Source: Clostridia bacterium (lineage in GTDB: Bacteria; Bacillota; Clostridia; TANB77; CAG-465). From it: a stretch of 64,000 nucleotides of DNA. This document shows, piece by piece, positions 2,627 through 45,276 of the stretch. The notes under the pieces are model-generated. The model made no database searches. It was not told the origin of the DNA and saw only the letters and a program-made list of their open reading frames with translations. The position numbers and the translations under genes are program-made. The stretch's first letter is position 1. Every line of letters starts with the position of its first letter. The stretch spans positions 4,979-68,978 of the forward strand of contig JAQUGQ010000003.1 in NCBI GenBank assembly GCA_028684095.1, in the 5' to 3' direction.

Positions 2627-3436
2627 TTATATTGTAATATCTAATATACTATATTTTTTATCTACTAACACTTCTGGATTAAATATGAAATGAATCTTAT
2701 TTTCTTCTATATAGAAAGTTTCAAGTCCAGTATATGAATAATTATATTCAGATTCTTTAATATTACAATTACTTATAACATAATTTTTAATTCCTATTTT
2801 AATTTTATCTTTATATGTTGAACTTAATATATCAAGTATCACGTCTTCTTGTTTTAAAATCATTCCATCCCTTTGATTTATATTATATGTATATATTTTT
2901 TCCATAGAATTAACTTTTGCACTATCATCAATCATTCTTTCATATATAGTTATAGATATTACATTCTTTTCTGCTATAATATTATCATATACTTTATATG
3001 TAACAGTATATGTAAAATTGTTATCTACATTCTCCATTGTCTTCTTAAATGAATTATAAGTATTATTAAATTTATTATATATTTGATCATTTATTGTAGT
3101 TAATACCTCATCATTTATAGATATTACAGGTATTGTTATATTTGCTTTTATCTTTTTTATTGTTTTATCTGAAATATAGTTATTAGTTATTTTATATAGC
3201 TCTGATGCATTATTTAATGGCTCTTCAACATCAGTTAAGGCATTACTTTCATCTAAATTTGATTTATTAACAATATCTGACCCAGATTGTCCTATTAAAG
3301 TAGGTTCTTTTTCAGTACAAATTGCAAAATATGTTATTGTAACTCCTATAAGTAAAAACAATATAATAAAAAAAATTTGTCCCTTATAACTTGCTTTTTT
3401 CGTTTCTCTAAATCTCATAGTTTCCATATACATCAA
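2627..3436 (-). CDS. Hypothetical membrane-anchored protein (single N-terminal TM, extracytoplasmic domain)
   Basis: ORF track 269 aa with N-terminal hydrophobic segment IFFIILFLLIGVTITYFAI. It is packed tightly between the Asp23-like gene and glyQS. Confidence 0.45.
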   Translation of the reverse strand: MMYMETMRFRETKKASYKGQIFFIILFLLIGVTITYFAICTEKEPTLIGQSGSDIVNKSNLDESNALTDVEEPLNNASELYKITNNYISDKTIKKIKANITIPVISINDEVLTTINDQIYNKFNNTYNSFKKTMENVDNNFTYTVTYKVYDNIIAEKNVISITIYERMIDDSAKVNSMEKIYTYNINQRDGMILKQEDVILDILSSTYKDKIKIGIKNYVISNCNIKESEYNYSYTGLETFYIEENKIHFIFNPEVLVDKKYSILDITI

Positions 3437-8395: not shown

Positions 8396-9412
8396 TTATT
8401 TTAACAGTTCTCTTATTATAATTGTATTGTCTTTTGTTTTTAAATATACTGTATTATTTTTGATAGATTCAAAAGTAACATAATTTGAAAGTTTTATTAA
8501 CCTTTTATTAGGATTTTCAGAAGATATATTAATTATATATGTAGGGTAAATCAAATATACATTTGTATTATCACTATAATAACTAAGAACATCTGTGTCA
8601 GTTAAATCAATTGTATCAACTATTTTATTGTTTTGTACTTTGTATACCTTATTCTTATTTTCAGATGATATAAAATAAATATTATCATCTAAATCTGTTC
8701 CTATAAGGTTTACTTTTTCTTTAAATATACTTAATTTACCACCTGAATAATAAATATTACTCTTGTTATCTTCATAATAAAGTCTATCTTTCGCTTTTAA
8801 CATACAAAGTTTTGATATAATTTTATCTGATACAACTTGAGAACTACCTTTAAATAAATCAATCCTATAAATAATATTATTTTCTTTTATACCAGATTTT
8901 GTTTCTATATTCATGTATATAATATTTATAACTGGTGAACATTCAAATTCTTTTATTCTACTGAAATTATTTACTGTATATTTCTCTTCTTGTTTTTTGT
9001 TTTTTGAACTAATTTCATAAGTTCTAAGAGTTAACTTTGAGCTTGTTCCAACCTTTTTATGTGTAAAATATACAATTTGATTTTTATCATATAATAAGTT
9101 ACAAAAGCAGATAGGATCAGTTTCTTCTATTGTTGTTATTAATTCTTTCTTTTTAGTATCATTTACATATATTTTACCATCTTTTAAATATATGTAATAT
9201 TTGTTATCATATGCATATTGTACAAGTGTACTTTCACTTTCTAATTTTAAATTTTCAGTAGTTGATATATCTTTTAAACTATCACTGTCTTGTATAATTG
9301 TACTCGAATTATTAAGTGAATATACAAAATCATCAACAAGTGTAAGACAAACCACTGTTATAATAAAACTTATAGTCATAAATGTAAATATGTATTTTAA
9401 TATCTTTTTCAT
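8396..9412 (-). CDS. Hypothetical membrane-anchored protein
   Basis: 338-aa ORF with N-terminal TM ILKYIFTFMTISFIITVVCLTLV. No recognisable catalytic motifs. Confidence 0.4.
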   Translation of the reverse strand: MKKILKYIFTFMTISFIITVVCLTLVDDFVYSLNNSSTIIQDSDSLKDISTTENLKLESESTLVQYAYDNKYYIYLKDGKIYVNDTKKKELITTIEETDPICFCNLLYDKNQIVYFTHKKVGTSSKLTLRTYEISSKNKKQEEKYTVNNFSRIKEFECSPVINIIYMNIETKSGIKENNIIYRIDLFKGSSQVVSDKIISKLCMLKAKDRLYYEDNKSNIYYSGGKLSIFKEKVNLIGTDLDDNIYFISSENKNKVYKVQNNKIVDTIDLTDTDVLSYYSDNTNVYLIYPTYIINISSENPNKRLIKLSNYVTFESIKNNTVYLKTKDNTIIIRELLK

Positions 9413-10444: not shown

Positions 10445-12841
10445 TTAATATATATTTACTTCATTATTATTTGGAGATGTTAATATTGCACTTGTATGTA
10501 TATTACAAGTTGCTGTAGGTATCATAAATCCCCAATCTTTTGGTTTTACACCTGGAACATAATCTCTAGTTATAAATGATTTAGTTACAGGATTCGGACA
10601 AAATTCTGTCGCTAGAAGACCTGTTTCACTGCATATACTAACTGATTTATGTATATCACATGTTTTAGTAGGTACACTGCCACTTGCAAATATATCAGTT
10701 ATAGTTTGATCTCCTCTAGGATCATTTCTACATGCATCTGTTGCAACAAATCCAGATATTCTACACACTGAACCTTTTACTATCGTAGAAGGTTTATCAA
10801 ATTGTTTAATTTCCTGACCTTTACTTATTGTATTTAATACAGTATTAAATAGCACCATAGAAGTATATGGATATGCTCCTATACCAGTCCTATATCCTAT
10901 AGATTTATTTGTATCATAACCATTCCAACAAGCTATAGTATAGTATGGTGAAAAACCTATAAACCATTGATCATAATCATCATTTGTATTACCAGTTTTA
11001 CCTGCTACTGGCATATTTCCAAGTTTAATTGTACCTGCACCAGTACCAGTTTTTATAACTGTCTCCAAACAATCTGTAAGCATAAACGAAGTAGAGTCTT
11101 TCATTACTTTTTTAGCTATAGTATCTTGTTTTAATACTTCTTTTTCATTTTTATCTAATACTTTTGTATATAATTTAGGTGTCATATATATTCCACCATT
11201 TGCTATAGTTGAATATGCATTTGCCATTTCAAGAACTGTGAATCCTTTTGTCACACCTCCTAATGCAATTGAAGCTAAGTTTTTATCTGCCTCTACTAAA
11301 TCTACAAGACCAGTATTTTTAGCAAATAGAAATGCATTATCTACTCCGGCTCTTTGAGCTGCTCTAACTGCTGGTATATTCATTGATTTAGATATAGCAA
11401 GTCTTGCTGTAACATAACCATTAAAGTATCCATAATAATTTCCAGGTGTCCAATTACCAAGTGTAAATTGACTATCATCAAGTCCCATTCCTGGGGCTAA
11501 AACTCCCTGTTCAAAAGCAGGTCCATATGCTCCAAGTGGTTTCATTGTAGAACCAGGTTGCCTATATGTTTGTGTTGCTCTGTTTAAAGTAAGTGTTCCT
11601 GATTTTACATCAGCTCCACCTATTAATCCTAATACATTACCTGTTGATTGATCCATTACAACCATTGAAGATTGCATAAAATCTCCTTTTTTATCTGTAT
11701 AGAATAATTTTGTATTATTGTAAGCATCGTCAATTGCTTTTTGAACTGCTTGATCTTGTGTTGAATATATTTTATATCCATCAGCATATAACATTTTAAT
11801 TGCAACTCCACGTGTTACACTTTTTTGTTCTTGTAAATCTAATATAACTTGTTCTATTACAGCATCAACAAAATATGTTTGAATTTTCTCAGTGCCAGAT
11901 ATTGATTCTTTTTTAAATATAATTTCATATTTAGAGGCTTCATCATATTCAACTTGAGATATTTTACCTAATTTTAACATTTGTTTTAATACTAAATCTT
12001 TTCTTTCAAGTAATCTTGTTTTAGCATCTTCACTTTTATATGGATTTGTATTTTCTGGAGTTTGTATTGCAGCAGCAAGTATTGCTGCCTCCGCAATATT
12101 TGTTTCCTTAATAGATTTTCCAAAATAATTTTGTGAAGCAACTTCAACACCATACGATCCATCGCCTAAATATATTGTGTTTAAATATGATTCCATTATT
12201 TGTTCTTTAGTAAGTTTACTTTCTAAAGATATTGCCCTATACCATTCTCTTATTTTTCTAGTCCATGAAGTTTCTTTGTCTGAAGTTATAGTTTTAACTA
12301 ATTGTTGAGTTATAGTACTACCACCAAAACTAGATTTACCACCATTGAATGCAAAAGTAAACACAGCTCCAGCTGTTCTTTTTATATCTACACCACCATG
12401 ACTAAAAAATCTTTCATCCTCTATAGATATAACCGCATCAACTAAAGATTTTGGTAAATTTTTATATTCTACAGTTACCCTATTTTCACTATCATATAAA
12501 TTTCCTATTTCAATTCCATCTTTATCATATATAAATGAAGTTAATTTAAGAAGTTGTAAATCTTCTAATTCAATACTATCAGTTTTGTCTATTACTCCAG
12601 AAATAACACCAAAAACAATACCTGTCCCGATTATGCCAAGAGCAACCATTGTGAACAAGAAAATTTTAAATATTTTCCATCTTAATTTTTTATTCTTTTT
12701 ATTTTTAATATTATTAGTATTCTTATCGTTACTTTTTTCATTAATGTTTTTGTTTCTACTATTATTAAAAATATTTTTAAATTTAAATAATTGTTTTTTT
12801 TCTGCAATATTTTTTTTTCTTATTTCTTGACCTTTTCTCAT
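10445..12841 (-). CDS. Class A penicillin-binding protein (bifunctional GT51 transglycosylase / transpeptidase, PBP1A-like)
   Basis: 798 aa with N-terminal TM, GT51 motifs (EDERFFSHGGVD, GGSTITQQLVKT) and a transpeptidase domain (STMKPL ... KTGT). Confidence 0.9.
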   Translation of the reverse strand: MRKGQEIRKKNIAEKKQLFKFKNIFNNSRNKNINEKSNDKNTNNIKNKKNKKLRWKIFKIFLFTMVALGIIGTGIVFGVISGVIDKTDSIELEDLQLLKLTSFIYDKDGIEIGNLYDSENRVTVEYKNLPKSLVDAVISIEDERFFSHGGVDIKRTAGAVFTFAFNGGKSSFGGSTITQQLVKTITSDKETSWTRKIREWYRAISLESKLTKEQIMESYLNTIYLGDGSYGVEVASQNYFGKSIKETNIAEAAILAAAIQTPENTNPYKSEDAKTRLLERKDLVLKQMLKLGKISQVEYDEASKYEIIFKKESISGTEKIQTYFVDAVIEQVILDLQEQKSVTRGVAIKMLYADGYKIYSTQDQAVQKAIDDAYNNTKLFYTDKKGDFMQSSMVVMDQSTGNVLGLIGGADVKSGTLTLNRATQTYRQPGSTMKPLGAYGPAFEQGVLAPGMGLDDSQFTLGNWTPGNYYGYFNGYVTARLAISKSMNIPAVRAAQRAGVDNAFLFAKNTGLVDLVEADKNLASIALGGVTKGFTVLEMANAYSTIANGGIYMTPKLYTKVLDKNEKEVLKQDTIAKKVMKDSTSFMLTDCLETVIKTGTGAGTIKLGNMPVAGKTGNTNDDYDQWFIGFSPYYTIACWNGYDTNKSIGYRTGIGAYPYTSMVLFNTVLNTISKGQEIKQFDKPSTIVKGSVCRISGFVATDACRNDPRGDQTITDIFASGSVPTKTCDIHKSVSICSETGLLATEFCPNPVTKSFITRDYVPGVKPKDWGFMIPTATCNIHTSAILTSPNNNEVNIY

Positions 12842-13339: not shown

Positions 13340-14065
13340 CTAAAATTCAAATATATCATCAGATATTTCATTGTTTAGTTCAAACTTTATAAATTTAATA
13401 TTAATATATACGTTGTTATCATTTGAGTATACCATTATATCTATTGGTTTATTATCTGATATAGTCAATTCTATTTTAGATAATTTTAAACCATTTGAAA
13501 ATAAATCTGAATATTTACATATACCTTCAGTGGTACATATTGTATCATGTATTTGTTTATCTAGAATTAATTCATATTTCTTTATGGCTTCTTCCTCTGT
13601 TACATTCAAGCACATACATTTTATACTATCTATATTATTAATTATATCTATATAAGTTGCTAAACTAAATAGATTAGTTTTTTTAAAGTTATTCGAATTT
13701 ATAATATAACTACTTATCTGTGAAGTATTTTCTATCTTTACTCTATCATTACAGACTATATATGAAATATCATTACCTAAAATATCTTTATAACCAAATT
13801 TAAAATATTCATTAATTCCATCTTTTTTATATATTTCATTCATGACATATATATTTCTATTTTTATTTGATATATCTGTTATTTCATACTCTGCAAAGTA
13901 TGAGTTACCAATAAATATATCTGATTGTTTAAGTGAATTATCAATTGGTGATTTTATAACAGAATAAAATGAAACATATATTAGTATAAAAGCAATTAAA
14001 ATAGCTAAAATTACTACAACGTACAATTTATTTTTTACAAAAAAAGAAATGTTAAAAACATGCAT
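13340..14065 (-). CDS. Hypothetical membrane-anchored protein directly upstream of mazF and translationally coupled to it (sits where an antitoxin would be)
   Basis: 241 aa with N-terminal TM VVVILAILIAFILIYVSF. Its stop overlaps the mazF RBS. No AbrB/MazE-like or RHH fold is evident. Confidence 0.4.
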   Translation of the reverse strand: MHVFNISFFVKNKLYVVVILAILIAFILIYVSFYSVIKSPIDNSLKQSDIFIGNSYFAEYEITDISNKNRNIYVMNEIYKKDGINEYFKFGYKDILGNDISYIVCNDRVKIENTSQISSYIINSNNFKKTNLFSLATYIDIINNIDSIKCMCLNVTEEEAIKKYELILDKQIHDTICTTEGICKYSDLFSNGLKLSKIELTISDNKPIDIMVYSNDNNVYINIKFIKFELNNEISDDIFEF

Positions 14066-14146: not shown

Positions 14147-15769
14147 TTATTGATTAGTTTTTGTTCCTTTGATATTAGCAATTGCTTGCCCAATCTCAGC
14201 AAGTTTTTCTTTAATTCCTTGTAAATCTTCCTCTACTATGTTATGTTTTATTTCTGTTTTAACTATATTAGTAACATCATCTATATCTTGTTTCAAGAAT
14301 GATAATTCTTCTAATATATCAAATCTAGCACTATTATATGTAGCCTTAGTTTCAATTAATTTACCATCTAATGTGTATGTTTCTTCAAGACTTGGAATAA
14401 TTGAATTGATACCAAATCTATTAAATATTTCATTTTTAAATACTTGTTGATTTAAATATTCACCATGAACTATAAATATATTTTTTGGTTTTTCTTTTAT
14501 TTTATCAATCCAATTTAATAATCCATTTTTATCTGCATGCCCTGAAAATGAATCTAAATATCTAATTTCAGCTTTTACTGCTATTTCTTCACCAAATATT
14601 TTCACTAATTTTTCACCTGACATTATTCTTTTACCAAGTGTTCCTTCAGCTTGAAATCCTACAAATAACACTGTAGATTCTGGTCTATACAAATTATGTT
14701 TCAAATGATGCTTTATTCTACCAACTTCGCACATTCCAGAAGCAGATATAATAATTTTTGGTATATTATCTTCATTTAAAGCTTTTGATTCTTCTGGAGA
14801 TACAATGAAGTGTAAATTTTCAAAGTTTAATGGATTTTCTCCTTCAAGCAAATATTTTAAAGTTTCTTCATCATAATATTCAGGATTTTGTTCGAATATT
14901 TTTGTAGCATTAACTGCAAGAGGACTGTCTACATAAACAGGTATTTTTCTAAGTTTATCTTCTACCCCTAATAAATCTGCATATTTATTTATTTCATATA
15001 ATATCTCTTGTGTTCTACCTACAGCAAAAGAAGGTATTATTAAGTTACCGCCTCTTTCAATAGTTTTTAATATTATATCTACAAATTCAGCTGATTGGTC
15101 TTTTATTTCACCATGTAATCTATTACCATATGTAGATTCTATTACTAAATAATCAGCTTTGTCAATAGTATCCGGATCATTTAAAAGTGGCATGTTAATA
15201 TTACCTAAATCACCTGTAAATACTAATCTTTTAACAGTATCATCTTCTTTTATATCTAATAAAACTATACTTGAACCTAACATATGACCTGCATCTATCA
15301 ATTTAAATGAAATATTTTCATCTATAACTACAGTTTGATTATATTCTAAGCCTTTAAATAATTTTATAGAATCACTACCATCTTGAGCTGTATACATAGG
15401 TTCTGATTCCTTTTTACCAGCTCTTCTTCTTTTTTTATTTACCCATTCAATTTCCTTTTCTTGTATATGACCACTGTCTGCTAACATTATAGTACATAAA
15501 TCAACTGTTGCATTTGTTGTATATATTACACCGTTATAACCTTGTTTATATAATTTTGGCAATCTACCACTATGATCTATGTGTGCATGTGTTAAAATAA
15601 CAAAGTCTATTTCTTTTATGTCAAAAGGAAAATCTTCGTAGTTTAACATTTGTTCTACAAGTTTTCCTTGAAACATTCCACAATCAACTAAAAATTTTTT
15701 ACCACATGCTTCAACCATGTGACATGATCCAGTAACTGTCCTAGCTGCCCCATAAAACGTTATATTCAT
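14147..15769 (-). CDS. MBL-fold beta-CASP RNA-metabolising hydrolase (COG1236 / CPSF73-like family)
   Basis: MNITFYGAARTVTGSCHMVEACGKKFLVDCGMFQG ... LTHAHIDHSGRLP is colinear with TTHA0252-type beta-CASP nucleases. 540 aa with a C-terminal extension. Confidence 0.8.
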   Translation of the reverse strand: MNITFYGAARTVTGSCHMVEACGKKFLVDCGMFQGKLVEQMLNYEDFPFDIKEIDFVILTHAHIDHSGRLPKLYKQGYNGVIYTTNATVDLCTIMLADSGHIQEKEIEWVNKKRRRAGKKESEPMYTAQDGSDSIKLFKGLEYNQTVVIDENISFKLIDAGHMLGSSIVLLDIKEDDTVKRLVFTGDLGNINMPLLNDPDTIDKADYLVIESTYGNRLHGEIKDQSAEFVDIILKTIERGGNLIIPSFAVGRTQEILYEINKYADLLGVEDKLRKIPVYVDSPLAVNATKIFEQNPEYYDEETLKYLLEGENPLNFENLHFIVSPEESKALNEDNIPKIIISASGMCEVGRIKHHLKHNLYRPESTVLFVGFQAEGTLGKRIMSGEKLVKIFGEEIAVKAEIRYLDSFSGHADKNGLLNWIDKIKEKPKNIFIVHGEYLNQQVFKNEIFNRFGINSIIPSLEETYTLDGKLIETKATYNSARFDILEELSFLKQDIDDVTNIVKTEIKHNIVEEDLQGIKEKLAEIGQAIANIKGTKTNQ

Positions 15770-37331: not shown

Positions 37332-38006
37332 TTATTTAACATAATCTTTAATATTGTATTCTGTTATTCCTTTAATAGAGTCAATACATATAAGTGGTGG
37401 GATAGTTTCACTAATTTCGTCTCTAAAAACAGTCCTTATGTATTTACATCCAATAGAAAATGTAATACTATCATTTTCTTTTGAATAAATACAGTATATT
37501 CCTCTTGTAAATTTTATTAATTTTCGACTTTCAATCTCATGTTCAATAGCCTGATTATTCCATTTAGAAATATTATCCATACATTCAAATGGATTAGAAA
37601 ATTTACCACAATATTGTATTACTCTTAGAACTTTTTTACCAAAGAATACATATTTTGTATCCCTAGTTTGTTCCATTTTTTTCTTCTTAGCAAGTGTAAT
37701 GATTTCAATAAATTCTTTATATTCTGTATTACATATACTAATTAAACCTATTTGAATTAAATCAATTTTTGGAGTAATTTGAGCATATCCAGATTTTGCA
37801 ATCAGAAAATTATTTAATTCATCGCTCACATTTTGATTGATTACACTATCTTCTTCTGTTATAATCCAAGAATATTGAAATGTATAATCTTCAAATTGTT
37901 CATAATACTTTACTAAGATTGTTTCTTCATTAAATATTGCAATCACTGATTCATTCGTTTCTTTTGATATTCTCATCATTTTTTTAATTTCGTCAAAATA
38001 ACACAC
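37332..38006 (-). CDS. Hypothetical protein
   Basis: 224-aa ORF with no recognisable motifs. Confidence 0.35.
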   Translation of the reverse strand: MCYFDEIKKMMRISKETNESVIAIFNEETILVKYYEQFEDYTFQYSWIITEEDSVINQNVSDELNNFLIAKSGYAQITPKIDLIQIGLISICNTEYKEFIEIITLAKKKKMEQTRDTKYVFFGKKVLRVIQYCGKFSNPFECMDNISKWNNQAIEHEIESRKLIKFTRGIYCIYSKENDSITFSIGCKYIRTVFRDEISETIPPLICIDSIKGITEYNIKDYVK

Positions 38007-41045: not shown

Positions 41046-41732
41046 CTAATTAAATAGAATTTTTTCTCTTTTTATATTATACTCTAGATTTTGTGATATA
41101 TATTCACAAAAACCACTCATTATTATATCTGGCTTCAAGTTACTTTTGGAACCTGCATTTACAGTAATTTCTAAATTTCCATCAAGTAAAAAATCATATG
41201 ATATTATCATTGGCTTTATATCAATTCTTTCTATTCTTTCTATTCTTTCTGTAGATTTTTTAATAACTAACAAAAAATCTTGTTCTAAATATTCTGATAA
41301 TTTTAATTTATACCACATTTTTAAATTTTCGATTTGTCTTTTATCTTTTCCTAGCAACATCACATTGCTATAACATATTTCAATTGTATATGTTGCTGCA
41401 TATACTCTAGACATTATACTTTTTTCACTTAAATTTATATACTCTGCTGATAATATAGTAATTGAAACGGGTAGAACTTTATTTAATTCCCTAACCAAAT
41501 ATGCTATAGGTAACTCTTCTACTAATATAGCCTCAAATATTTCTCCCTTACTTTCAATTCCTACTGATAAAGGATGTGCAAATACAATTTCAGGTCTAGG
41601 ATTATAACCTTTGCTATATTCTAGTGGAATATTAGCCCTTCTAAAGGTTTTCTCAAAAACTCCAATTATATCCAAATGAGACAAAAACATAGACTCTTTT
41701 GATTTACTATATACTGCTCTTAATTTAACCAT
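41046..41732 (-). CDS. TIGR03936/DUF2344 radical-SAM-associated protein
   Basis: MVKLRAVYSKSKESMFLSHLDIIGVFEKTFRRANIPLEYSKGYNPRPEIVFAHPLSVG matches DUF2344. Contains a 9-bp x3 in-frame tandem repeat (ERIERIERI). Confidence 0.6.
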   Translation of the reverse strand: MVKLRAVYSKSKESMFLSHLDIIGVFEKTFRRANIPLEYSKGYNPRPEIVFAHPLSVGIESKGEIFEAILVEELPIAYLVRELNKVLPVSITILSAEYINLSEKSIMSRVYAATYTIEICYSNVMLLGKDKRQIENLKMWYKLKLSEYLEQDFLLVIKKSTERIERIERIDIKPMIISYDFLLDGNLEITVNAGSKSNLKPDIIMSGFCEYISQNLEYNIKREKILFN

Positions 41733-41849
41733 TTTTTTATCCCCTTTTCATTCCAAATTTTCAATATTCTTATGTGTAAATAGTATATCACAATAATAAC
41801 AAATGTCAATATTTATTATATACATAATTAAAGCCACCTTATTTAAGTA

Positions 41850-41903
41850 AGATGACTAATATTTTAATTGGAGCAATATTCCAACAGGCATTAAACCTTT
41901 TTT
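41850..41903. repeat. Intergenic conserved repeat, copy 1 of 5 (core TTGGAGCAATATTCCAACAGGCATTAAACCTTTTTT)
   Basis: Immediately 3' of the MTase stop. Shares the 36-bp core with the other four copies. Confidence 0.7.
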
Positions 41904-41904
41904 A

Positions 41905-42654
41905 TCATTGTTTTTTAATTAACTTCATTATTAAAAATGATGGCTTATGTATCTCTTTTATTCGATCAGGAAATTTTTTGATTATTTCCTTTGATGGTAT
42001 TGGTTCAATTAATTGAACTATTTCAAAACCAGTCTCTGTTATAGTGTTAATGATCTCAGCAAAGGTACGATGAAACATTTCTAATTTTCCACTAAAATAA
42101 TTAGTTTCTCTAAAACCACTTTTACCATAATCTGATAAATGATAGTAATCATGTCCTTCTTCGTCTTTTGACCACGATCTACCATTTAATGGTGCTGTCG
42201 AAAATGGATGGATTTGAGAAAAAACAACAATTCCTTTTTCCTCTAATAAATTATATATATTTTTCATAGCAATTTTAAAATCACTAATATAGTTGAATAC
42301 AATGTCACTAATCACGATATCAAATTTGTCATTCAATTTATCCAAATCATAAATATTCATCTCTTTATATTCCACATTTTCATTTTTATTATGTCTGTTA
42401 GCATAATCAATAGCTCTTCTTGCTATATCTATACCTACTACTCTTTTAGCACCAATTTGAGAAAAGTAATAAACAAAATCACCAGTACCGCAACCAACGT
42501 CTAAAACTTTTTTGCCTTCAACACTTCCGACTAAATCAATAATAGTTGGATTTACCTCAATACTGTGCGGACTATTTTCATCATGCCTATATTTTAGATA
42601 CTCATCAAATATTTGCTCATCATCATAAATACTATAATTACTCATCCTAATCAC
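41905..42654 (-). CDS. Class I SAM-dependent methyltransferase
   Basis: Motif I VLDVGCGTGDFVYYFSQIGAKRVVGIDIARRAIDYA. Confidence 0.8.
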   Translation of the reverse strand: MIRMSNYSIYDDEQIFDEYLKYRHDENSPHSIEVNPTIIDLVGSVEGKKVLDVGCGTGDFVYYFSQIGAKRVVGIDIARRAIDYANRHNKNENVEYKEMNIYDLDKLNDKFDIVISDIVFNYISDFKIAMKNIYNLLEEKGIVVFSQIHPFSTAPLNGRSWSKDEEGHDYYHLSDYGKSGFRETNYFSGKLEMFHRTFAEIINTITETGFEIVQLIEPIPSKEIIKKFPDRIKEIHKPSFLIMKLIKKQ

Positions 42655-42687
42655 CTCTATTAATCATATCTCATTTTACTAAAAATC

Positions 42688-42744
42688 AAGGGTTTGATTA
42701 CTCTTTAAATGGAGCAATCTTCCAACAGGCATTAAACCTTTTTT
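42688..42744. repeat. Intergenic conserved repeat, copy 2 of 5
   Basis: AAGGGTTTGATTACTCTTTAAATGGAGCAATCTTCCAACAGGCATTAAACCTTTTTT. Confidence 0.7.
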
Positions 42745-42778
42745 ATATATTATTACTAATAAAAAACAATTACTTATA

Positions 42779-43210
42779 TTAAATAATATTAATATCTTTG
42801 TCATAAAATTTATTCTTTAAATACAATTCAATATTTACACTAGTTCCTTTAAATAAACTAGGAAATTCTTTAACATTAAAAAATCTTTGATCATCACATT
42901 TGTCAGGCTCACATATCTTTGGTATTCCCTCATATTTTTTTACTAAAACACCAAATTGGATGTTTTCATTAGTTCTTGCAACGTTTATAACCTCAACATC
43001 TTCTAATTTAACTATTAGTGAGGTTTCTTCCCTTATTTCTCTTATAGTAGCTTCTTCTATTGTTTCGTTGTTTTTTAAATGTCCACCTGGTAACCCATAG
43101 GTTCCATATCCTGCTTTTTTTAATCTTCTACCAAGTAATATTTCTCCAATTTCATTTATAATAATAGGATTTACTCCTACTTTTAAATCATTATTTTCCA
43201 TATAAACCAC
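42779..43210 (-). CDS. NUDIX hydrolase
   Basis: Nudix box GGHLKNNETIEEATIREIREETSL. Confidence 0.8.
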   Translation of the reverse strand: MVYMENNDLKVGVNPIIINEIGEILLGRRLKKAGYGTYGLPGGHLKNNETIEEATIREIREETSLIVKLEDVEVINVARTNENIQFGVLVKKYEGIPKICEPDKCDDQRFFNVKEFPSLFKGTSVNIELYLKNKFYDKDINII

Positions 43211-43284
43211 CTTAAATATAAATTATACATTATAATACATATTAAAACAATGAAAATTTCATTAATATGTAAATCATAAAAAGT

Positions 43285-43341
43285 AAAAGGTTTGATTATC
43301 CTTTAAATGGAGCAATCTTCCAATAGGCAACAAACCTTTTT
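43285..43341. repeat. Intergenic conserved repeat, copy 3 of 5
   Basis: AAAAGGTTTGATTATCCTTTAAATGGAGCAATCTTCCAATAGGCAACAAACCTTTTT. Confidence 0.7.
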
Positions 43342-43371
43342 ATACTTTTCACAACATTTAATTTCTACTGT

Positions 43372-43788
43372 TTATTTAATTTCCTTTAATTCGCCATATT
43401 CTTTAATAAAATTTATAATTGGTAAAAATAACGGTCTTGGTAAATTATTAGGTTCAAACCATTCCCATTTTTCACATTTATCAGGTTCCATTCTAATAAG
43501 TTCTCCTGATTTATAATCTGCTCTCATAAATATAGTAATATAATGTTTATTTTCTTCTTCAAATATATCATTGGTAACACCCATCATTTTTATATTATCT
43601 ATTTCTATATTTATTTCTTCCTTTATTTCTCTAATTGAACATTCTTCCCATGACTCATTAAACTCTAAATGCCCTCCGGGAAAACTCCATGTATTCTCAC
43701 CATGGGCGCCTTTCCTACAACCAAGTAATACTTTACCTTCTTTAAAAATACATACTCCAATTCCAACCCTAACATTCATCTCTTTCAC
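43372..43788 (-). CDS. NUDIX hydrolase (second, divergent paralog)
   Basis: Nudix box [25 protein letters not shown]. Confidence 0.8.
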
Positions 43789-43838
43789 CTCTATATTAAT
43801 TATACAATAGTTTTCATGAAAATCAAACTTTCGAACAT

Positions 43839-43892
43839 AAGGCTTGCTTGTACTTTAAACGGTGGAATCTTCCAACAGGCGGCAAACCTTTT
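43839..43892. repeat. Intergenic conserved repeat, copy 4 of 5 (most divergent)
   Basis: AAGGCTTGCTTGTACTTTAAACGGTGGAATCTTCCAACAGGCGGCAAACCTTTTG. A sigma-A-like promoter (TTGATT-16-TATAAT) lies just downstream toward the next gene. Confidence 0.65.
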
Positions 43893-43969
43893 GTATATTA
43901 TATTATCTAATTTTTATTCTTTATTATATTTCGTTTTCTGTGGTCTACCAGTATTACTCTCATCAGTAA

Positions 43970-44656
43970 TTATATATTATTTTTGAAAAAATCAGAAGTT
44001 TTATCACAATTAATTTCTATTCCGTTAATAATAAATGTATGTTTTTTATTCAATTGTTTAGCTATTTTCTGTGGAATAGTAATTGCTTTTTCCCAAGCTT
44101 TTAATATATTTACATCAAAATTACTATCTGTTGTATAACTTACAATAAAATCATTATCTTTAATTTCAATATATACATTTTTTATTTTTTGTATTTCAAT
44201 ATTCATTTCATCTTGAATACTTGAATTTTCTGTTCTATGATAAGTTACATCTAATTTATCTGCTAAAACTAATGCTAATCCAATTAAATTTTTTATATCA
44301 TTTCCTTTTGAATGGTCTCTAATTGCTTGTCTTAAAATCTCTTTTTCATCTTTTGTAACATTAGTATTTTTAATAAATTTGACAAATAATTTGCTACTTT
44401 CAATAGCATGGTCTATTTTATCACCTTTACTTAAACCAATATCATGTAATAATGCTGAAGCCATTCCTAAATCAATAGTTCTTTCATCAACTTTTAATTG
44501 TGTTAAAATATTTTTCACATATTGAGCAACTCTCTTATAATGACCAAGTCCATGTTCCCAGTCCCATTTTCCATCAGTAATAAATTTAATTTTTTCTGTT
44601 TTTTCTACTATTTTCAAATATTCACTATTATTTAATATTAATTCATATAACGCCAT
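43970..44656 (-). CDS. HD-domain phosphohydrolase
   Basis: HGLGHYKRVAQYV ... LLHDIGLSKG are HD motifs. Confidence 0.7.
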   Translation of the reverse strand: MALYELILNNSEYLKIVEKTEKIKFITDGKWDWEHGLGHYKRVAQYVKNILTQLKVDERTIDLGMASALLHDIGLSKGDKIDHAIESSKLFVKFIKNTNVTKDEKEILRQAIRDHSKGNDIKNLIGLALVLADKLDVTYHRTENSSIQDEMNIEIQKIKNVYIEIKDNDFIVSYTTDSNFDVNILKAWEKAITIPQKIAKQLNKKHTFIINGIEINCDKTSDFFKNNI

Positions 44657-44747
44657 AATACCCCCTATATATTTTAAATTATATTCTTAAAAAATGTCTT
44701 GTTTTATAATGATATTAACTGGTTTATAATGAATTTAAACAAAAATA

Positions 44748-44797
44748 TTCGATTACATATTATTTGGAGCAATATTCCAATAGGCGACAAACCTTTT
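44748..44797. repeat. Intergenic conserved repeat, copy 5 of 5
   Basis: ...TATTTGGAGCAATATTCCAATAGGCGACAAACCTTTTT. The T-run overlaps the stop of the small membrane ORF. Confidence 0.7.
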
Positions 44798-45069
44798 TAA
44801 TAGTCTGTTTTGTTTTTATAAACAAGATATTTTATAATATTAATCATCCAAAACAAAATTAATATTATAAATGCAATTGTATATACTATACGTCCCCAAA
44901 AAATTATTAATAATTGAATAATTACACCATCTATAATTTGGATTGTTTTATCTTCTGATAATGATGATAAATTCAAGGTATACATCAATATTACATCTAA
45001 AATTATTATTCCTACAATAATTAGAGTAAATATTATTTTGGATTTTGTTATTAATTTAAATGATTTCAT
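44797..45069 (-). CDS. Small hypothetical membrane protein (2-3 TM)
   Basis: 90 aa, hydrophobic (IIFTLIIVGIIILDVILMY ... IAFIILILFWMINII). Confidence 0.4.
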   Translation of the reverse strand: MKSFKLITKSKIIFTLIIVGIIILDVILMYTLNLSSLSEDKTIQIIDGVIIQLLIIFWGRIVYTIAFIILILFWMINIIKYLVYKNKTDY

Positions 45070-45202
45070 TTTATCACCATCCTTATTTTAAAAAACATAT
45101 TCGTTATCTATATTAATAAAACTAGTACTAAAACTTTGTTTTTATTTAAAATAAAATATTTTCTTATCCTTTCAAGCCTCAAAGGTTCGATTAAATTTAA
45201 TT

Positions 45203-45276
45203 TGGAGCGGGCTGTGGGAATCGAACCCACTTCGAAAGATCGGAAGCCTTTTATTCTACCACTAAACTAAGCCCGC
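45203..45276 (-). tRNA. tRNA-Gly (anticodon TCC)
   Basis: Minus strand reads GCGGGCTTAGTTTAGTGGTAGAAT...GGCTTCCGATCTTT...GGGTTCGATTCCCACAGCCCGCTCCA. Cloverleaf verified by hand; the 3' CCA is encoded. Confidence 0.85.

What the first reader, a model, noticed from the sequence alone, without database searches (positions are those of the whole stretch)
41850..44800. Cassette-like array: five consecutive same-strand small genes, each followed by a copy of a ~55-bp conserved repeat, abutting tRNA-Gly and tRNA-Leu
The genes SAM-MTase, NUDIX, NUDIX, HD hydrolase and a 90-aa membrane protein all lie on the minus strand. Each is followed within 0-75 nt of its stop by a copy of TTGGAGCAAT(A/C)TTCCAA(C/T)AGGC(NNN)AAACCTTTTT. 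This core contains an inverted repeat, TTGGA-N6-TCCAA, and is flanked upstream by a semi-conserved GGTTTGATTAYCCTTTAAA that can pair with the 3' CAAACC. Recognisable promoters (e.g. TTGATT-16-TATAAT before the 43788 gene) lie between each repeat and the next gene, so the repeat appears to belong to the 3' end of each unit. The functions (NUDIX, HD, MTase) are typical accessory cassette cargo, and the array ends at a tRNA pair, a classic island insertion point. Candidate roles: a recombination site of a novel cassette-accumulating system (no integrase is in the window), a shared operator for a dimeric regulator, or a structured RNA terminator/attenuator. I do not recognise it as any named riboswitch or REP family.
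Basis: seen in the sequence. Interest (0 to 1): 0.8.

Follow-up and report, generated by a model that had tools for sequence, protein, structure and literature searches.

The report
Gene cassettes stacked behind tRNA-Gly
In an uncultured Clostridia genome, five small accessory genes each end in the same ~35-60-bp sequence, which finishes with the last bases of the neighbouring tRNA-Gly gene; related genomes have this spot empty or filled with other genes, so it looks like a gene-collecting site built by site-specific insertion, with no recombinase gene nearby.

Summary
Five same-strand copies of a conserved element (AAAAGGTTT-NNN-GCCTRTTGGAAKATTGCTCCA) follow five consecutive minus-strand genes, and there are no other copies in the 64 kb. 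The element has no match in Rfam, phages or plasmids. Scans of 185,579 species genomes and of JGI metagenomes found it only in six other AT-rich Bacillota/Clostridia loci, always as 2-3 same-strand copies separated by one to three small genes (or none).

Three findings point to recombination:
- The conserved arm ends in GCTCCA, which is also the 3' end of the adjacent tRNA-Gly(UCC).
- The sequences that follow the arms also follow the tRNA itself.
- A relative has the site empty (tRNA-Gly, hairpin, DUF2344). Others hold 2, 3, 5 or 6 different genes between the same two landmarks.

I read it as a tandem array of small cassettes inserted by site-specific recombination at the tRNA-Gly 3' end, each carrying a ~33-bp 3' site. 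This resembles an integron in layout and tRNA-island accretion in target.

No recombinase lies in the window or beside any array. No excision product was seen. Shared cassettes are about as diverged as the flanking core gene. The mechanism is therefore inferred, not shown. I rate it a new variant of a known kind, interest 0.7.

The parts
45203..45276 (-). tRNA-Gly(UCC), 'type A'. Its 3' end GCTCCA is the proposed primary insertion point (attB/attI-like).
   Evidence: ARAGORN and Rfam. The same tRNA heads the arrays in L086, L094, L097 and L106, and heads the empty site in L100/L101.
45170..45202 (-). tRNA-Gly trailer AATTAAATTTAATCGAACCTTTGAGG..., a member of the 'R1' right-half family that also follows arms.
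   Evidence: It is 82% identical over 28 nt to the sequence after arm c1 (family D10). It is near-identical to the sequence after arm L084_1195.
44797..45069 (-). Cassette 1 cargo: 90-aa predicted membrane protein.
   Evidence: ORF. No Pfam hit. Called as a gene in the source MAG.
44760..44800 (-). Arm c1 (AAAAAGGTTTGTCGCCTATTGGAATATTGCTCCA); it overlaps the stop codon of the 90-aa gene.
43970..44656 (-). Cassette 2 cargo: HD-domain hydrolase, 228 aa.
   Evidence: Pfam PF01966, E 7.9e-7.
43836..43895 (-). Arm c2 plus R1-type right half (most diverged copy: ...GATTCCACCG TTTAAAGTACAAGCAAGCC).
43372..43779 (-). Cassette 3 cargo: NUDIX hydrolase 'NudA', 135 aa.
   Evidence: Pfam PF00293, E 2.4e-21. 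It is 84% identical to the NUDIX gene in array L094, which has different neighbours.
43278..43342 (-). Arm c3 plus R1 right half (TTTAAAGGATAATCAAACCTTTTACTTTTT). This is the only copy that folds into one long hairpin.
   Evidence: ssDNA fold -9.0 kcal/mol, z -3.0.
42779..43201 (-). Cassette 4 cargo: NUDIX hydrolase 'NudB', 140 aa.
   Evidence: Pfam PF00293, E 1.4e-15. Only 34% identical to NudA.
42681..42745 (-). Arm c4 plus R1 right half (TTTAAAGAGTAATCAAACCCTTGATTTTT).
41905..42645 (-). Cassette 5 cargo: class I SAM-dependent methyltransferase, 246 aa.
   Evidence: Pfam Methyltransf_31/11/25. Its ortholog (91% identity) holds the same distal position in L086.
41864..41904 (-). Arm c5, the distal boundary of the array. 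It is joined at GCTCCA to chromosomal sequence.
   Evidence: The junction is homologous to L086_11667.
41826..41863 (-). 'R2': ancestral tRNA-Gly trailer with terminator hairpin (CATCTTAC..TAAGGTG), followed by the DUF2344 promoter TTGACA-16-TATACT (41809-41782).
   Evidence: It is the only terminator-like hit in 41.5-45.7 kb. In the empty site of L100/L101/L102 the same hairpin directly follows tRNA-Gly GCTCCA.
41046..41732 (-). DUF2344/TIGR03936 radical-SAM-associated protein: a conserved core gene that marks the distal chromosomal flank.
   Evidence: Pfam PF10105, E 2.7e-44. Its orthologs were used as the anchor for comparison.

Best explanation
The locus is a tandem array of small mobile units (cassettes) inserted one after another by site-specific recombination at the 3' end of tRNA-Gly(UCC).

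Each unit carries a ~33-bp conserved site at its 3' end: the 'arm' AAAAGGTTT-NNN-GCCTRTTGGAAGATT followed by GCTCCA(A). The last 6-7 bases of this site are identical to the 3' end of the tRNA gene. Recombination at or just after GCTCCA(A) joins the tRNA, or a resident arm, to the 5' end of an incoming unit. It joins the incoming unit's arm to whatever lay downstream.

Many units begin with a copy of the tRNA trailer/terminator family R1 (ATTTAAAGGGTAATCAAACCCTTGATTTTT) followed by their own promoter. R1 terminates the upstream transcript. Other units are promoterless and start 25-45 nt before the ATG.

The recombinase acts in trans and is encoded elsewhere. Its class is unknown; a tyrosine recombinase is the default guess. 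Arms that are no longer used decay.

What is shown:
- The repeats, their sharp boundaries, and the shared GCTCCA register with the tRNA.
- The interchange of right-hand sequences between the tRNA and the arms.
- Empty versus differently filled sites in relatives.

What is inferred:
- That the units moved singly.
- That the arm is the protein-recognised site.
- The kind of enzyme.
For: 1. Register with the tRNA. In relative L086, tRNA-Gly ...CCCGCTCCA is followed directly by ATTTAAAGGGTAATTAAACCCTTGATTTT. This is the same right half that follows arms c3 and c4 and arm L086_10827 after their GCTCCA. The window's own tRNA trailer matches the sequences after c1 and L084_1195.

2. A second right-hand family (R3, ATTTTAWAARWTTTGCCATAA...RBS) follows tRNA-Gly in L094. 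It follows an arm in L086, ahead of an unrelated gene.

3. Empty site. In L100/L101/L102, tRNA-Gly GCTCCA is followed directly by the hairpin CCACCTTAC..GTAGGGTGG, then the TTGACA promoter and DUF2344. In the window, L086 and L098 the distal arm is joined to the homologous hairpin. In L094 the hairpin directly follows the last gene, with no arm.

4. Variable content between the same landmarks:
- window: 5 genes
- L086: 2 genes (serine hydrolase, methyltransferase)
- L098: at least 2 genes (OLD nuclease, isochorismatase); the contig starts inside the array and no tRNA is in view
- L094: 6 genes (S51 peptidase, two small proteins, two GNATs, NUDIX)
- L097: 3 genes

5. Shared units have different neighbours. 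NudA is 84% identical between the window and L094, where it is flanked by GNATs. The methyltransferase is 91% identical between the window and L086.

6. A prediction was fulfilled. In L027 the only tRNA-Gly in view lay 3.4 kb downstream of the arms. A wider view (L106) showed a type-A tRNA-Gly with an R1-like trailer at the head of the array.

7. A NudA homolog (81% identical) outside any array has no arm and an ordinary GC-rich terminator. An 85% homolog in an array has arms on both sides.

8. Gene-free units exist: two arms 142 bp apart in L084, and tRNA-R1, about 250 nt, then an arm in L086.

9. The repeat has sharp boundaries. Conservation is at the sequence level, including the would-be loop AAGATT, with no covariation. 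This fits protein recognition.

10. The element is rare and lineage-restricted, and is found only in such arrays.
Against: - No integrase, serine recombinase or transposase domain was found in any window ORF of 110 aa or more, nor beside any array examined. An ISL3 transposase next to one arm looks incidental.
- The identity with the tRNA is short: 6-7 bp, at most about 13 bp if the AT-rich ATTWAAA is counted.
- No circular junction or excision product was observed.
- No near-identical cassette was found in two places. Shared cassettes (84-91% aa) are about as diverged as the flanking core gene (78-89%), so there is no sign of recent movement.
- Some inserted genes lack arms: all of L097, the distal genes of L094, and two genes in L057. 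The hotspot therefore also changes by other routes, or arms decay quickly.
- The arm lies in the 3' UTR of every cargo gene, on the sense strand, so an RNA-level role cannot be excluded.
Confidence: 0.6

Rival explanations
1. Decayed islands rather than cassettes. Each unit is the remnant of a full-size integrative element (phage, ICE or IME) that carried its own tRNA-Gly-specific integrase. These elements accreted in tandem and then lost everything except one cargo gene and the attR-side arm. This is the classical route that produces cis-mobilizable elements (CIMEs).
For: Insertion at a tRNA 3' end, a direct repeat that includes the tRNA terminus, and tandem accretion with integrase-less remnants are all documented for ICE/IME/CIME and tycheposons. 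Degenerate arms are present in L094 and L098.
Against: All 24 arms seen sit in units of about 0.14-2.4 kb, and no integrase fragment appears in any of them. Repeated independent decay to just one intact small gene plus both ends is unparsimonious. Units have compact, similar layouts: R1 terminator, promoter, gene, arm.
Confidence: 0.12
2. Transcript-end module. The arm plus R1 is a functional RNA or terminator unit, for example a 3'-end stabiliser or insulator. It mimics the tRNA-Gly 3' end and trailer so that the same processing machinery trims the mRNA to ...GCUCCA, sealed in the UUGGA/UCCAA hairpin. Under this view, gene-content variation at the locus comes from ordinary homologous recombination after DNA uptake, with the repeats acting only as portable homology.
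For: - The element is always on the sense strand, 0-76 nt after a stop codon.
- R1 and other hairpin-plus-T-run sequences follow the arm.
- c3 and c4 fold better than shuffles (z -2.6 and -1.95).
- The lineage encodes ComEC.
Against: - There is no covariation in either small hairpin: 88.9% paired against 88.1% in shuffles, with 69 of 500 shuffles reaching the observed value. Variant copies break pairs rather than compensate.
- The 'loop' is as conserved as the stems.
- c1 and c5 have no significant fold (z -0.06 and -0.69).
- Arms decay in situ next to intact genes.
- An 81% homolog of NudA works with an ordinary terminator.
- No Rfam family matches.
- This view does not by itself explain why the distal arm is fused at GCTCCA to the very trailer that follows the tRNA in the empty site.
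Confidence: 0.13
3. Single-strand transposition. The units are non-autonomous cargo-carrying relatives of IS200/IS605 elements (PATE-like). A Y1 HUH transposase encoded elsewhere moves them. It inserts them 3' of the short target ...CTCCA, without target duplication, using subterminal hairpins. Each right end also ends in CTCCA, so every insertion would create a new target, giving co-oriented tandem arrays.
For: From established knowledge of IS608/ISDra2 (not tested here), this family shows strict co-orientation, insertion immediately 3' of a fixed short sequence, and small hairpins near both unit ends. Here, AAGG..CCT lies in the arm and AAGGGT..ACCCTT in R1. The tRNA end and every arm end share GCTCCA.
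Against: - No Y1 transposase or TnpB was found in the window or beside any array.
- Several units lack the R1 hairpin at their 5' end (R3-type and promoterless units).
- The two hairpins are not clearly alike.
- Spacing to the cleavage point differs from known family members. This last comparison is recalled from memory, not tested.
Confidence: 0.08
4. Shared operator. The arm is the DNA-binding site of a regulator that co-controls the promoters downstream of each copy, forming a regulon of housecleaning enzymes.
For: Conservation is at the sequence level and includes a short inverted repeat, TTGGA-N7-TCCAA. Promoter-like sites lie downstream of each copy.
Against: - Distance from arm to the -35 hexamer varies widely, about 35 to about 58 nt and more.
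- One arm precedes a tRNA gene, another precedes alanine racemase, and another precedes DUF2344.
- Some arms are followed directly by an RBS with no promoter.
- This view does not explain the tRNA-end register or the empty site.
Confidence: 0.04

Closest known systems
Integron gene-cassette arrays, including CALINs (clusters of attC sites lacking an integrase)
   Same: - Co-oriented tandem array of mostly single, small accessory genes.
- Each gene is followed by a conserved, partly palindromic site of about 35-60 bp.
- Gene-free units occur.
- Content differs between close relatives.
- Some units are promoterless.
- No recombinase lies inside the units.
   Different: - No intI and no attI/Pc platform in 64 kb.
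- The site lacks the R''/R' boxes RYYYAAC/GTTRRRY on either strand and is conserved in sequence rather than only in structure.
- The junction lies at the end of the conserved arm, next to a tRNA terminus.
- In the window, promoter-like sites precede most units.
- The host is an AT-rich Clostridia lineage, whereas integrons are essentially a Gram-negative feature (established knowledge).
tRNA-targeting integrative elements with tandem accretion, and their integrase-less derivatives (CIMEs) (PMC5704250)
   Same: - Insertion at the 3' end of a tRNA gene.
- Direct repeats that contain the tRNA terminus.
- Successive insertions stack in tandem.
- Units without recombination genes persist, flanked by att sites.
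   Different: - Units here are 0.14-2.4 kb and mostly hold a single gene. They are not kilobase-scale decayed ICEs/IMEs.
- The repeat shares only 6-7 (at most about 13) bp with the tRNA region.
- The bulk of the conserved site (27 nt) is not tRNA sequence.
- No integrase-bearing member has been seen.
Tycheposons of Prochlorococcus (bioRxiv 10.1101/2020.12.28.424599)
   Same: - Genomic islands seeded at specific tRNA genes.
- New arrivals push older ones inward.
- Partial att repeats are scattered through the island.
- The cargo consists of accessory genes.
   Different: - Tycheposons carry their own tyrosine recombinase and replication genes.
- Their att repeats are partial tRNAs of about 40 nt.
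- Here there are no hallmark genes, and the repeat is a non-tRNA arm.
Xer-dependent modules (pdif modules of Acinetobacter plasmids; IMEX elements such as CTX/TLC at dif). This comparison is from established knowledge and was not tested.
   Same: Small gene modules, or tandemly integrated elements, bounded by short recombination sites and moved by a host recombinase encoded elsewhere.
   Different: - Those sites are 28-bp dif-like sequences, and the target is dif or plasmid pdif.
- The arm shows no convincing dif likeness by eye. No formal test was possible.
- The target here is a tRNA 3' end.
IS200/IS605 family and its non-autonomous PATE derivatives. This comparison is from established knowledge.
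   Same: - Orientation-specific insertion 3' of a fixed short sequence, without target duplication.
- Small subterminal hairpins.
- Possible mobilisation in trans.
   Different: - No Y1 transposase was seen.
- The 5' ends of units are heterogeneous.
- Cargo-carrying single-gene PATEs stacked at a tRNA are not described, to my knowledge.

Membership tests
Integron / attC cassette array | An intI tyrosine recombinase with adjacent attI and Pc. | tested here: not met
   Pfam scans of all window ORFs of 110 aa or more, plus precomputed Pfam for +/-10 kb, found no Phage_integrase domain. None was found next to arrays in L086, L094, L098 or L106.
Integron / attC cassette array | attC sites with R'' (RYYYAAC) and R' (GTTRRRY) boxes at the ends of an imperfect palindrome. 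| tested here: not met
   Neither box occurs on either strand of any of the five copies. A long hairpin forms convincingly only in c3.
Integron / attC cassette array | Co-oriented small cassettes, one site per cassette, with content that varies between relatives. | tested here: met
tRNA-integrated genomic island / tandem accretion | The insertion lies exactly at the 3' end of a tRNA gene, shown by comparing empty and occupied sites. | tested here: met
   The empty site in L100/L101/L102 can be compared with occupied sites in the window, L086, L094 and L097 (with the tRNA in view) and L098 (distal junction only). Insertion starts right after GCTCCA.
tRNA-integrated genomic island / tandem accretion | Direct repeats at both ends that contain the tRNA 3' segment. 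| tested here: met
   GCTCCA(A) occurs at the tRNA end and at the end of every intact arm. The repeat is short, 6-7 bp.
tRNA-integrated genomic island / tandem accretion | An element-encoded integrase (and excisionase). | tested here: not met
   None in any unit or flank examined.
Dispersed REP/MITE-type repeat | Many copies scattered through intergenic regions genome-wide. | tested here: not met
   There are no copies in the other ~61 kb of the window or outside arrays in the related DNA fetched, about 240 kb. The whole genome could not be scanned.
Known structured RNA (riboswitch, attenuator, T-box, sRNA) | A match to a curated covariance model, or covariation that supports a fold. | tested here: not met
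   Rfam found nothing at gathering scores and nothing relevant at E up to 10. There is no covariation signal.
Intrinsic terminator | A GC-rich stem-loop followed by a T-run. | tested here: inconclusive
   The arm alone does not qualify. The scan flags only the R2 hairpin at 41857-41832. R1 (AAGGGT..ACCCTT plus T-run) is a weak terminator-like hairpin below the scan's threshold.
IS200/IS605-type (HUH Y1) element | A tnpA (Y1 transposase), and similar subterminal hairpins at both ends. | tested here: not met
   No such domain in the window. The 5' ends of units are heterogeneous. Action in trans cannot be excluded.

The most novel reading that the evidence does not exclude
This would be a previously unrecognised integron-like gene-capture system of Gram-positive, AT-rich Clostridia. 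Single-gene cassettes carry a ~33-bp sequence-conserved 3' recombination site (AAAAGGTTT-NNN-GCCTRTTGGAAGATTGCTCCAA). A dedicated, non-IntI recombinase encoded elsewhere in the genome inserts, excises and shuffles them. The 3' end of tRNA-Gly(UCC) serves as the attI-equivalent. Many cassettes bring their own terminator and promoter, so they are expressed wherever they sit in the stack.
Probability: 0.35. Interest if true: 0.85.

Novelty: new variant of a known kind. Interest (0 to 1): 0.7.

Why it matters
Integrons are the textbook way bacteria stockpile single genes, but they are essentially confined to Gram-negative lineages. Firmicutes are thought to rely on larger elements. A cassette stack at a tRNA end, with a short dedicated site and no resident integrase, would show that the same 'gene shelf' layout evolved on a different recombination chassis.

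It would give a defined pair of DNA sites for finding a new site-specific recombinase: the 33-bp arm and the tRNA-Gly 3' end. Such enzymes are useful genome-engineering tools.

It would also explain micro-diversity in an uncultured Clostridia lineage. The cargo is a coherent set of small 'housecleaning' and modification enzymes (NUDIX, HD, GNAT, methyltransferase, hydrolases) plus one OLD-family nuclease.

Even the conservative reading is a clean, compact example for annotation pipelines, which currently call nothing here. That reading is decayed tandem islands at a tRNA.

Tried and rejected
1. Riboswitch or known RNA. Rfam at gathering scores and at E up to 10 found nothing relevant.

2. tRNA remnant. 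I aligned the arm to the T-arm/acceptor of tRNA-Gly by eye. Only AG...GCTCCA (8 of 11 bases) matches, there is no T-loop, and the arm cannot form a minihelix. I rejected the idea that the arm is a partial tRNA copy.

3. Phage or plasmid origin. A degenerate 16-base core hit 17 IMG/VR contigs, all chance matches without the AAAAGGTTT part. blastn of the arm plus R1 against phage and plasmid records gave only sub-significant partial hits.

4. Long attC-like hairpin. It forms only in c3. Other copies fold as three separate small hairpins, or not significantly. The attC boxes are absent.

5. Covariation for the two arm hairpins. There is none.

6. Foreign base composition. The GC content of the array equals that of its flanks.

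7. Hunt for a recombinase through more arrays.
- Loci found with homologs of two cassette genes added one wider array (L106) and one armed cassette (L110/L111).
- No recombinase was linked to arms.
- The Xer-like integrase in L113 lies in a locus without arms.
- More distant DUF2344 orthologs (62% identity; L103-L105) have neither the tRNA nor the array.

8. dif-likeness and T-box-likeness (UGGA facing UCCA). I considered both from memory. No formal test was available, and the Rfam T-box model did not hit.

Full report
**Source and setting**

The window comes from contig JAQWEW010000004.1 of MAG GCA_028704735.1, labelled 'Clostridia bacterium'. It is 25.7% GC. Around the finding, the minus strand reads:
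- tRNA-Leu(caa) 45608-45522
- tRNA-Gly(tcc) 45276-45203
- a 90-aa membrane protein
- an HD hydrolase
- two NUDIX hydrolases (34% identical to each other)
- a SAM methyltransferase
- the core genes DUF2344/TIGR03936, SpoVG and ComEC

Five copies of one element lie on the gene strand. One follows each of the five small genes, 0 to about 76 nt after the stop codon.
The fifth copy is more diverged.
- A profile of 18 family members finds no further copy in the 64 kb.
- Read in the sense of the genes, the conserved part is AAAAGGTTT-NNN-GCCTRTTGGAAKATTGCTCCA. I call this 'the arm'.
- Mean pairwise identity among the five rises from the AT-rich background of about 0.4 to 0.8-0.88 exactly at the A-run. 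It falls back to background 50-60 nt later.
I call it 'R1'. It is present only after the three inner copies. The first copy has a variant of it, and the last copy has unrelated sequence.

**What it is not**

- Rfam has no match at gathering scores and nothing relevant at E up to 10.
- IMG/VR hits to a degenerate core are chance matches that lack the AAAAGGTTT part.
- Phage and plasmid records give only sub-significant partial hits.
- The integron attC boxes RYYYAAC/GTTRRRY are absent on both strands of all five copies.
- A single long hairpin forms well only in copy c3. The other copies give three small separate hairpins or no significant fold.
- I aligned 24 distinct family members. The two small hairpins in the arm (AGGT-N5-GCCT and TTGGA-N7-TCCAA) show no covariation. 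Paired cells are 88.9%, against 88.1% in shuffles, and 69 of 500 shuffles reach the observed value.
- The 'loop' AAGATT is as conserved as the stems. Only the triplet NNN varies freely. The constraint is therefore on sequence, as expected for a protein-recognised DNA site. It is not demonstrably on RNA or ssDNA structure.

**Distribution**

An 18-specified-base pattern was scanned over one genome for each of 185,579 species. It gave 24 hits, of which two carry the full element:
- L027, Bacillota MAG
- L037, Clostridiaceae MAG

The same scan of JGI metagenomes gave four true loci among 49 hits: L056, L057, L084 and L086. All true loci are 22-27% GC.

In every true locus longer than 1.3 kb there are 2-3 copies on one strand. 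They are separated by one small gene, by three genes in L057, or by none.

Cargo seen across the family:
- NUDIX hydrolases (several)
- GNAT acetyltransferases (several)
- HD hydrolase
- methyltransferase
- serine hydrolase
- S51 peptidase
- isochorismatase
- an OLD-family nuclease
- a Sel1-repeat protein
- a widespread ~105-aa protein
- small membrane proteins

**The key anatomy: the arm ends with the tRNA's own 3' end**

L086 is a syntenic relative; its methyltransferase is 91% identical to the window's. There, tRNA-Gly ...CAGCCCGCTCCA is followed immediately by ATTTAAAGGGTAATTAAACCCTTGATTTTTTTT. This is R1, the same sequence that follows ...GATTGCTCCA of arms c3, c4 and L086_10827.

The window's own tRNA-Gly trailer is AATTAAATTTAATCGAACCTTT. 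It matches the sequences after arm c1 (82% over 28 nt, family D10) and after arm L084_1195.

A second right-hand family, R3 (ATTTTAWAARWTTTGCCATAA...RBS), follows tRNA-Gly in L094. It follows an arm in L086, in front of unrelated genes.

So the tRNA 3' end and the arm are interchangeable left partners of the same right-hand sequences, and the joint is always at GCTCCA(A). Arms of one loop subtype (for example NNN = AAT or GTC) are joined to different right-hand families in different places.

**Empty and filled sites**

I used DUF2344 orthologs as an anchor and recovered the same chromosomal spot from relatives.
- In L100/L101/L102 (76% identical anchor) the site is empty. It reads ADK(-), tRNA-Gly ...GCTCCA|AACGATT-CCACCTTACTAGATGGTAGGGTGG (a terminator hairpin, 'R2'), a TTGACA promoter, then DUF2344.
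- In the window the homologous hairpin lies at 41857-41832. It is the only terminator-like hit in the region. It sits just after arm c5, and the same TTGACA-16-TATACT promoter follows it.

Content in the corresponding interval:

| Locus | Genes | Content | Arms |
|---|---|---|---|
| window | 5 | membrane protein, HD, NudA, NudB, methyltransferase | 5 intact |
| L086 | 2 | serine hydrolase, methyltransferase | 3 |
| L098 (contig starts inside the array; no tRNA in view) | at least 2 | OLD nuclease, isochorismatase | 2 (one degenerate) |
| L094 (GCA_036681025.1) | 6 | S51 peptidase, 112 aa, 132 aa, GNAT, NUDIX, GNAT | 2 intact, 2 visibly degenerate |
| L097 | 3 | 407 aa, HTH, DUF6773 | none recognisable |

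NudA is shared by the window and L094 (84% identity) but has different neighbours in each. The methyltransferase is the distal unit in both the window and L086.

More distant orthologs of the anchor (62% identity) have neither the tRNA nor the array.

**A prediction that held**

In L027 and L037 the only tRNA-Gly in view lay downstream of the arms. This seemed to contradict insertion at a tRNA 3' end. A wider view of the L027 genome (L106) resolved it for that genome:
- A 'type A' tRNA-Gly(tcc) close in sequence to the window's sits at the head of that array.
- It is followed by an R1-like trailer (ATTATAGAGTAATCAATG...).
- The downstream tRNA is a different 'type B' tRNA-Gly(tcc).

Arrays thus start at the type-A tRNA-Gly in at least two different chromosomal contexts.

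**The arm goes with the array, not with the gene**

- A NudA homolog 85% identical (L110/L111) has arms on both sides.
- One 81% identical (L112), in an unrelated context, has no arm and an ordinary GC-rich terminator.
- Homologs of the ~105-aa cassette protein at 81-86% identity in other genomes also lack arms.
- Gene-free units occur: two arms 142 bp apart in L084, and tRNA-R1, about 250 nt, then an arm in L086.

**Mechanism proposed**

The simplest account is site-specific recombination between two sites:
- the tRNA-Gly 3' end, or any resident arm
- a site on an incoming circular unit, made of the arm, GCTCCA(A) and the unit's own 5' end

Integration puts the unit's 5' end after the tRNA. 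Often this 5' end is R1, which then terminates the tRNA or the upstream gene, followed by a promoter. The unit's arm ends up in front of the previous trailer. Repetition builds a co-oriented stack bounded distally by arm-GCTCCA-R2, as observed.

Some units are promoterless, with the ATG 25-45 nt after the joint (L086 hydrolase, L094 S51 peptidase, L098 isochorismatase). These would be read through from upstream.

What is shown: the repeats, their boundaries, the register with the tRNA, the swapping of partners, and the empty and filled states.

What is inferred: movement as single cassettes, and the enzyme.

**The main weakness**

- No recombinase or transposase domain occurs in any window ORF of 110 aa or more, nor next to any array.
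- The ISL3 transposase beside one arm looks like an unrelated insertion.
- No circle junction was seen.
- Shared cassettes are about as diverged as the core anchor, so there is no evidence of recent movement.
- Some genes in the hotspot have no arm.

**Rival explanations**

The rivals are:
- Remnants of full-size islands (CIME-like decay).
- A transcript-end RNA module, with variation coming from homologous recombination.
- IS200/IS605-like single-strand transposition in trans.
- A shared operator.

The operator idea fits worst. Distances to promoters vary, arms precede a tRNA gene and core genes, and some arms are followed directly by an RBS.

The RNA idea cannot be excluded, but it lacks covariation support. 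It also does not explain the fusion of the distal arm to the ancestral tRNA trailer.

**Comparison with known systems**

- In layout it works like an integron array or CALIN. It fails the integron membership tests: no intI, no attI, no attC boxes.
- In target and repeat logic it works like tandem accretion of integrative elements at a tRNA 3' end with integrase-less units (CIMEs, PMC5704250; tycheposon islands). However, its units are single genes, and the bulk of its site is not tRNA sequence.
- From established knowledge, it also recalls Xer-dependent pdif modules, which are small modules moved by a recombinase encoded elsewhere.

I therefore rate it a new variant of a known kind. There is a substantial chance (about 0.35) that it is a distinct integron-like capture system of Clostridia with its own recombinase.

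**Verdict**

- The mechanism is plausible but unproven.
- Interest 0.7.

Noticed in passing
L106:8213-8286 and L106:13791-13864 (also L037:6865-6938): Two different tRNA-Gly(tcc) genes bracket the array in the L027/L106 genome. 'Type A' is like the window's. 'Type B' reads GCGGGCGTAGTTCAATGG.... Both end in CCCGCTCCA, yet the array with arms starts after type A. Small genes also follow type B, but no arms were found there.
   Followed up: partly
L106:9950-10000, 11540-11578, 14190-14223, 14960-14990: Several cassettes in this array share a near-identical leader just before the start codon (AATAGTAATTTGTAGGAGG). In the window lineage a different shared leader recurs (TAATATAGAGGTGA) before NudA, the methyltransferase and L094 NUDIX. 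Cassettes seem to share a promoter/RBS backbone as well as the 3' arm.
   Followed up: no
L098:376-2394: One unit of the hotspot in a relative carries a 672-aa OLD-family nuclease (AAA_15/AAA_21 plus OLD-like TOPRIM). This is a typical anti-phage defence gene, so the stack also collects defence genes.
   Followed up: no
window:44766-44782 and equivalents (arm hairpin TTGGA-N7-TCCAA): The arm contains UGGA facing UCCA. UGGA is also the sequence that, in glycine T-box leaders, pairs with the UCCA end of tRNA-Gly (recalled knowledge). The Rfam T-box model does not hit, so this is probably a coincidence of the shared GCTCCA.
   Followed up: partly
window:12956-13330 (with 13340-14065 upstream on the minus strand): A PemK/MazF-type toxin gene (E 1.1e-34) lies next to a 241-aa ORF with no Pfam hit where an antitoxin would be expected.
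   Followed up: no
window:57884-62896: Three consecutive large ORFs (366, 410 and 490 aa) have no Pfam match at E up to 0.001. So do the ORFs at 2627-3436, 8396-9412 and 37332-38006.
   Followed up: no
L110:712-1887: An ISL3-family transposase gene sits on the opposite strand about 200 nt after an arm, at the edge of a NudA cassette. It may be an IS insertion into the array.
   Followed up: no
window:38085-40517: The precomputed Pfam list for the ComEC homolog includes the Anti-Pycsar Apyc1 family alongside Lactamase_B. This probably reflects only the shared metallo-beta-lactamase fold.
   Followed up: no
L108:2491-11845: A relative without arms has a long run of about 18 small co-oriented accessory genes (DUF1093, DUF1706, flavodoxin, alanine racemase, DUF1848, RhuM, Fic, the ~105-aa protein, YjbR and others). 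This resembles an arm-free version of the same kind of gene shelf. In L057 an arm directly precedes alanine racemase.
   Followed up: no
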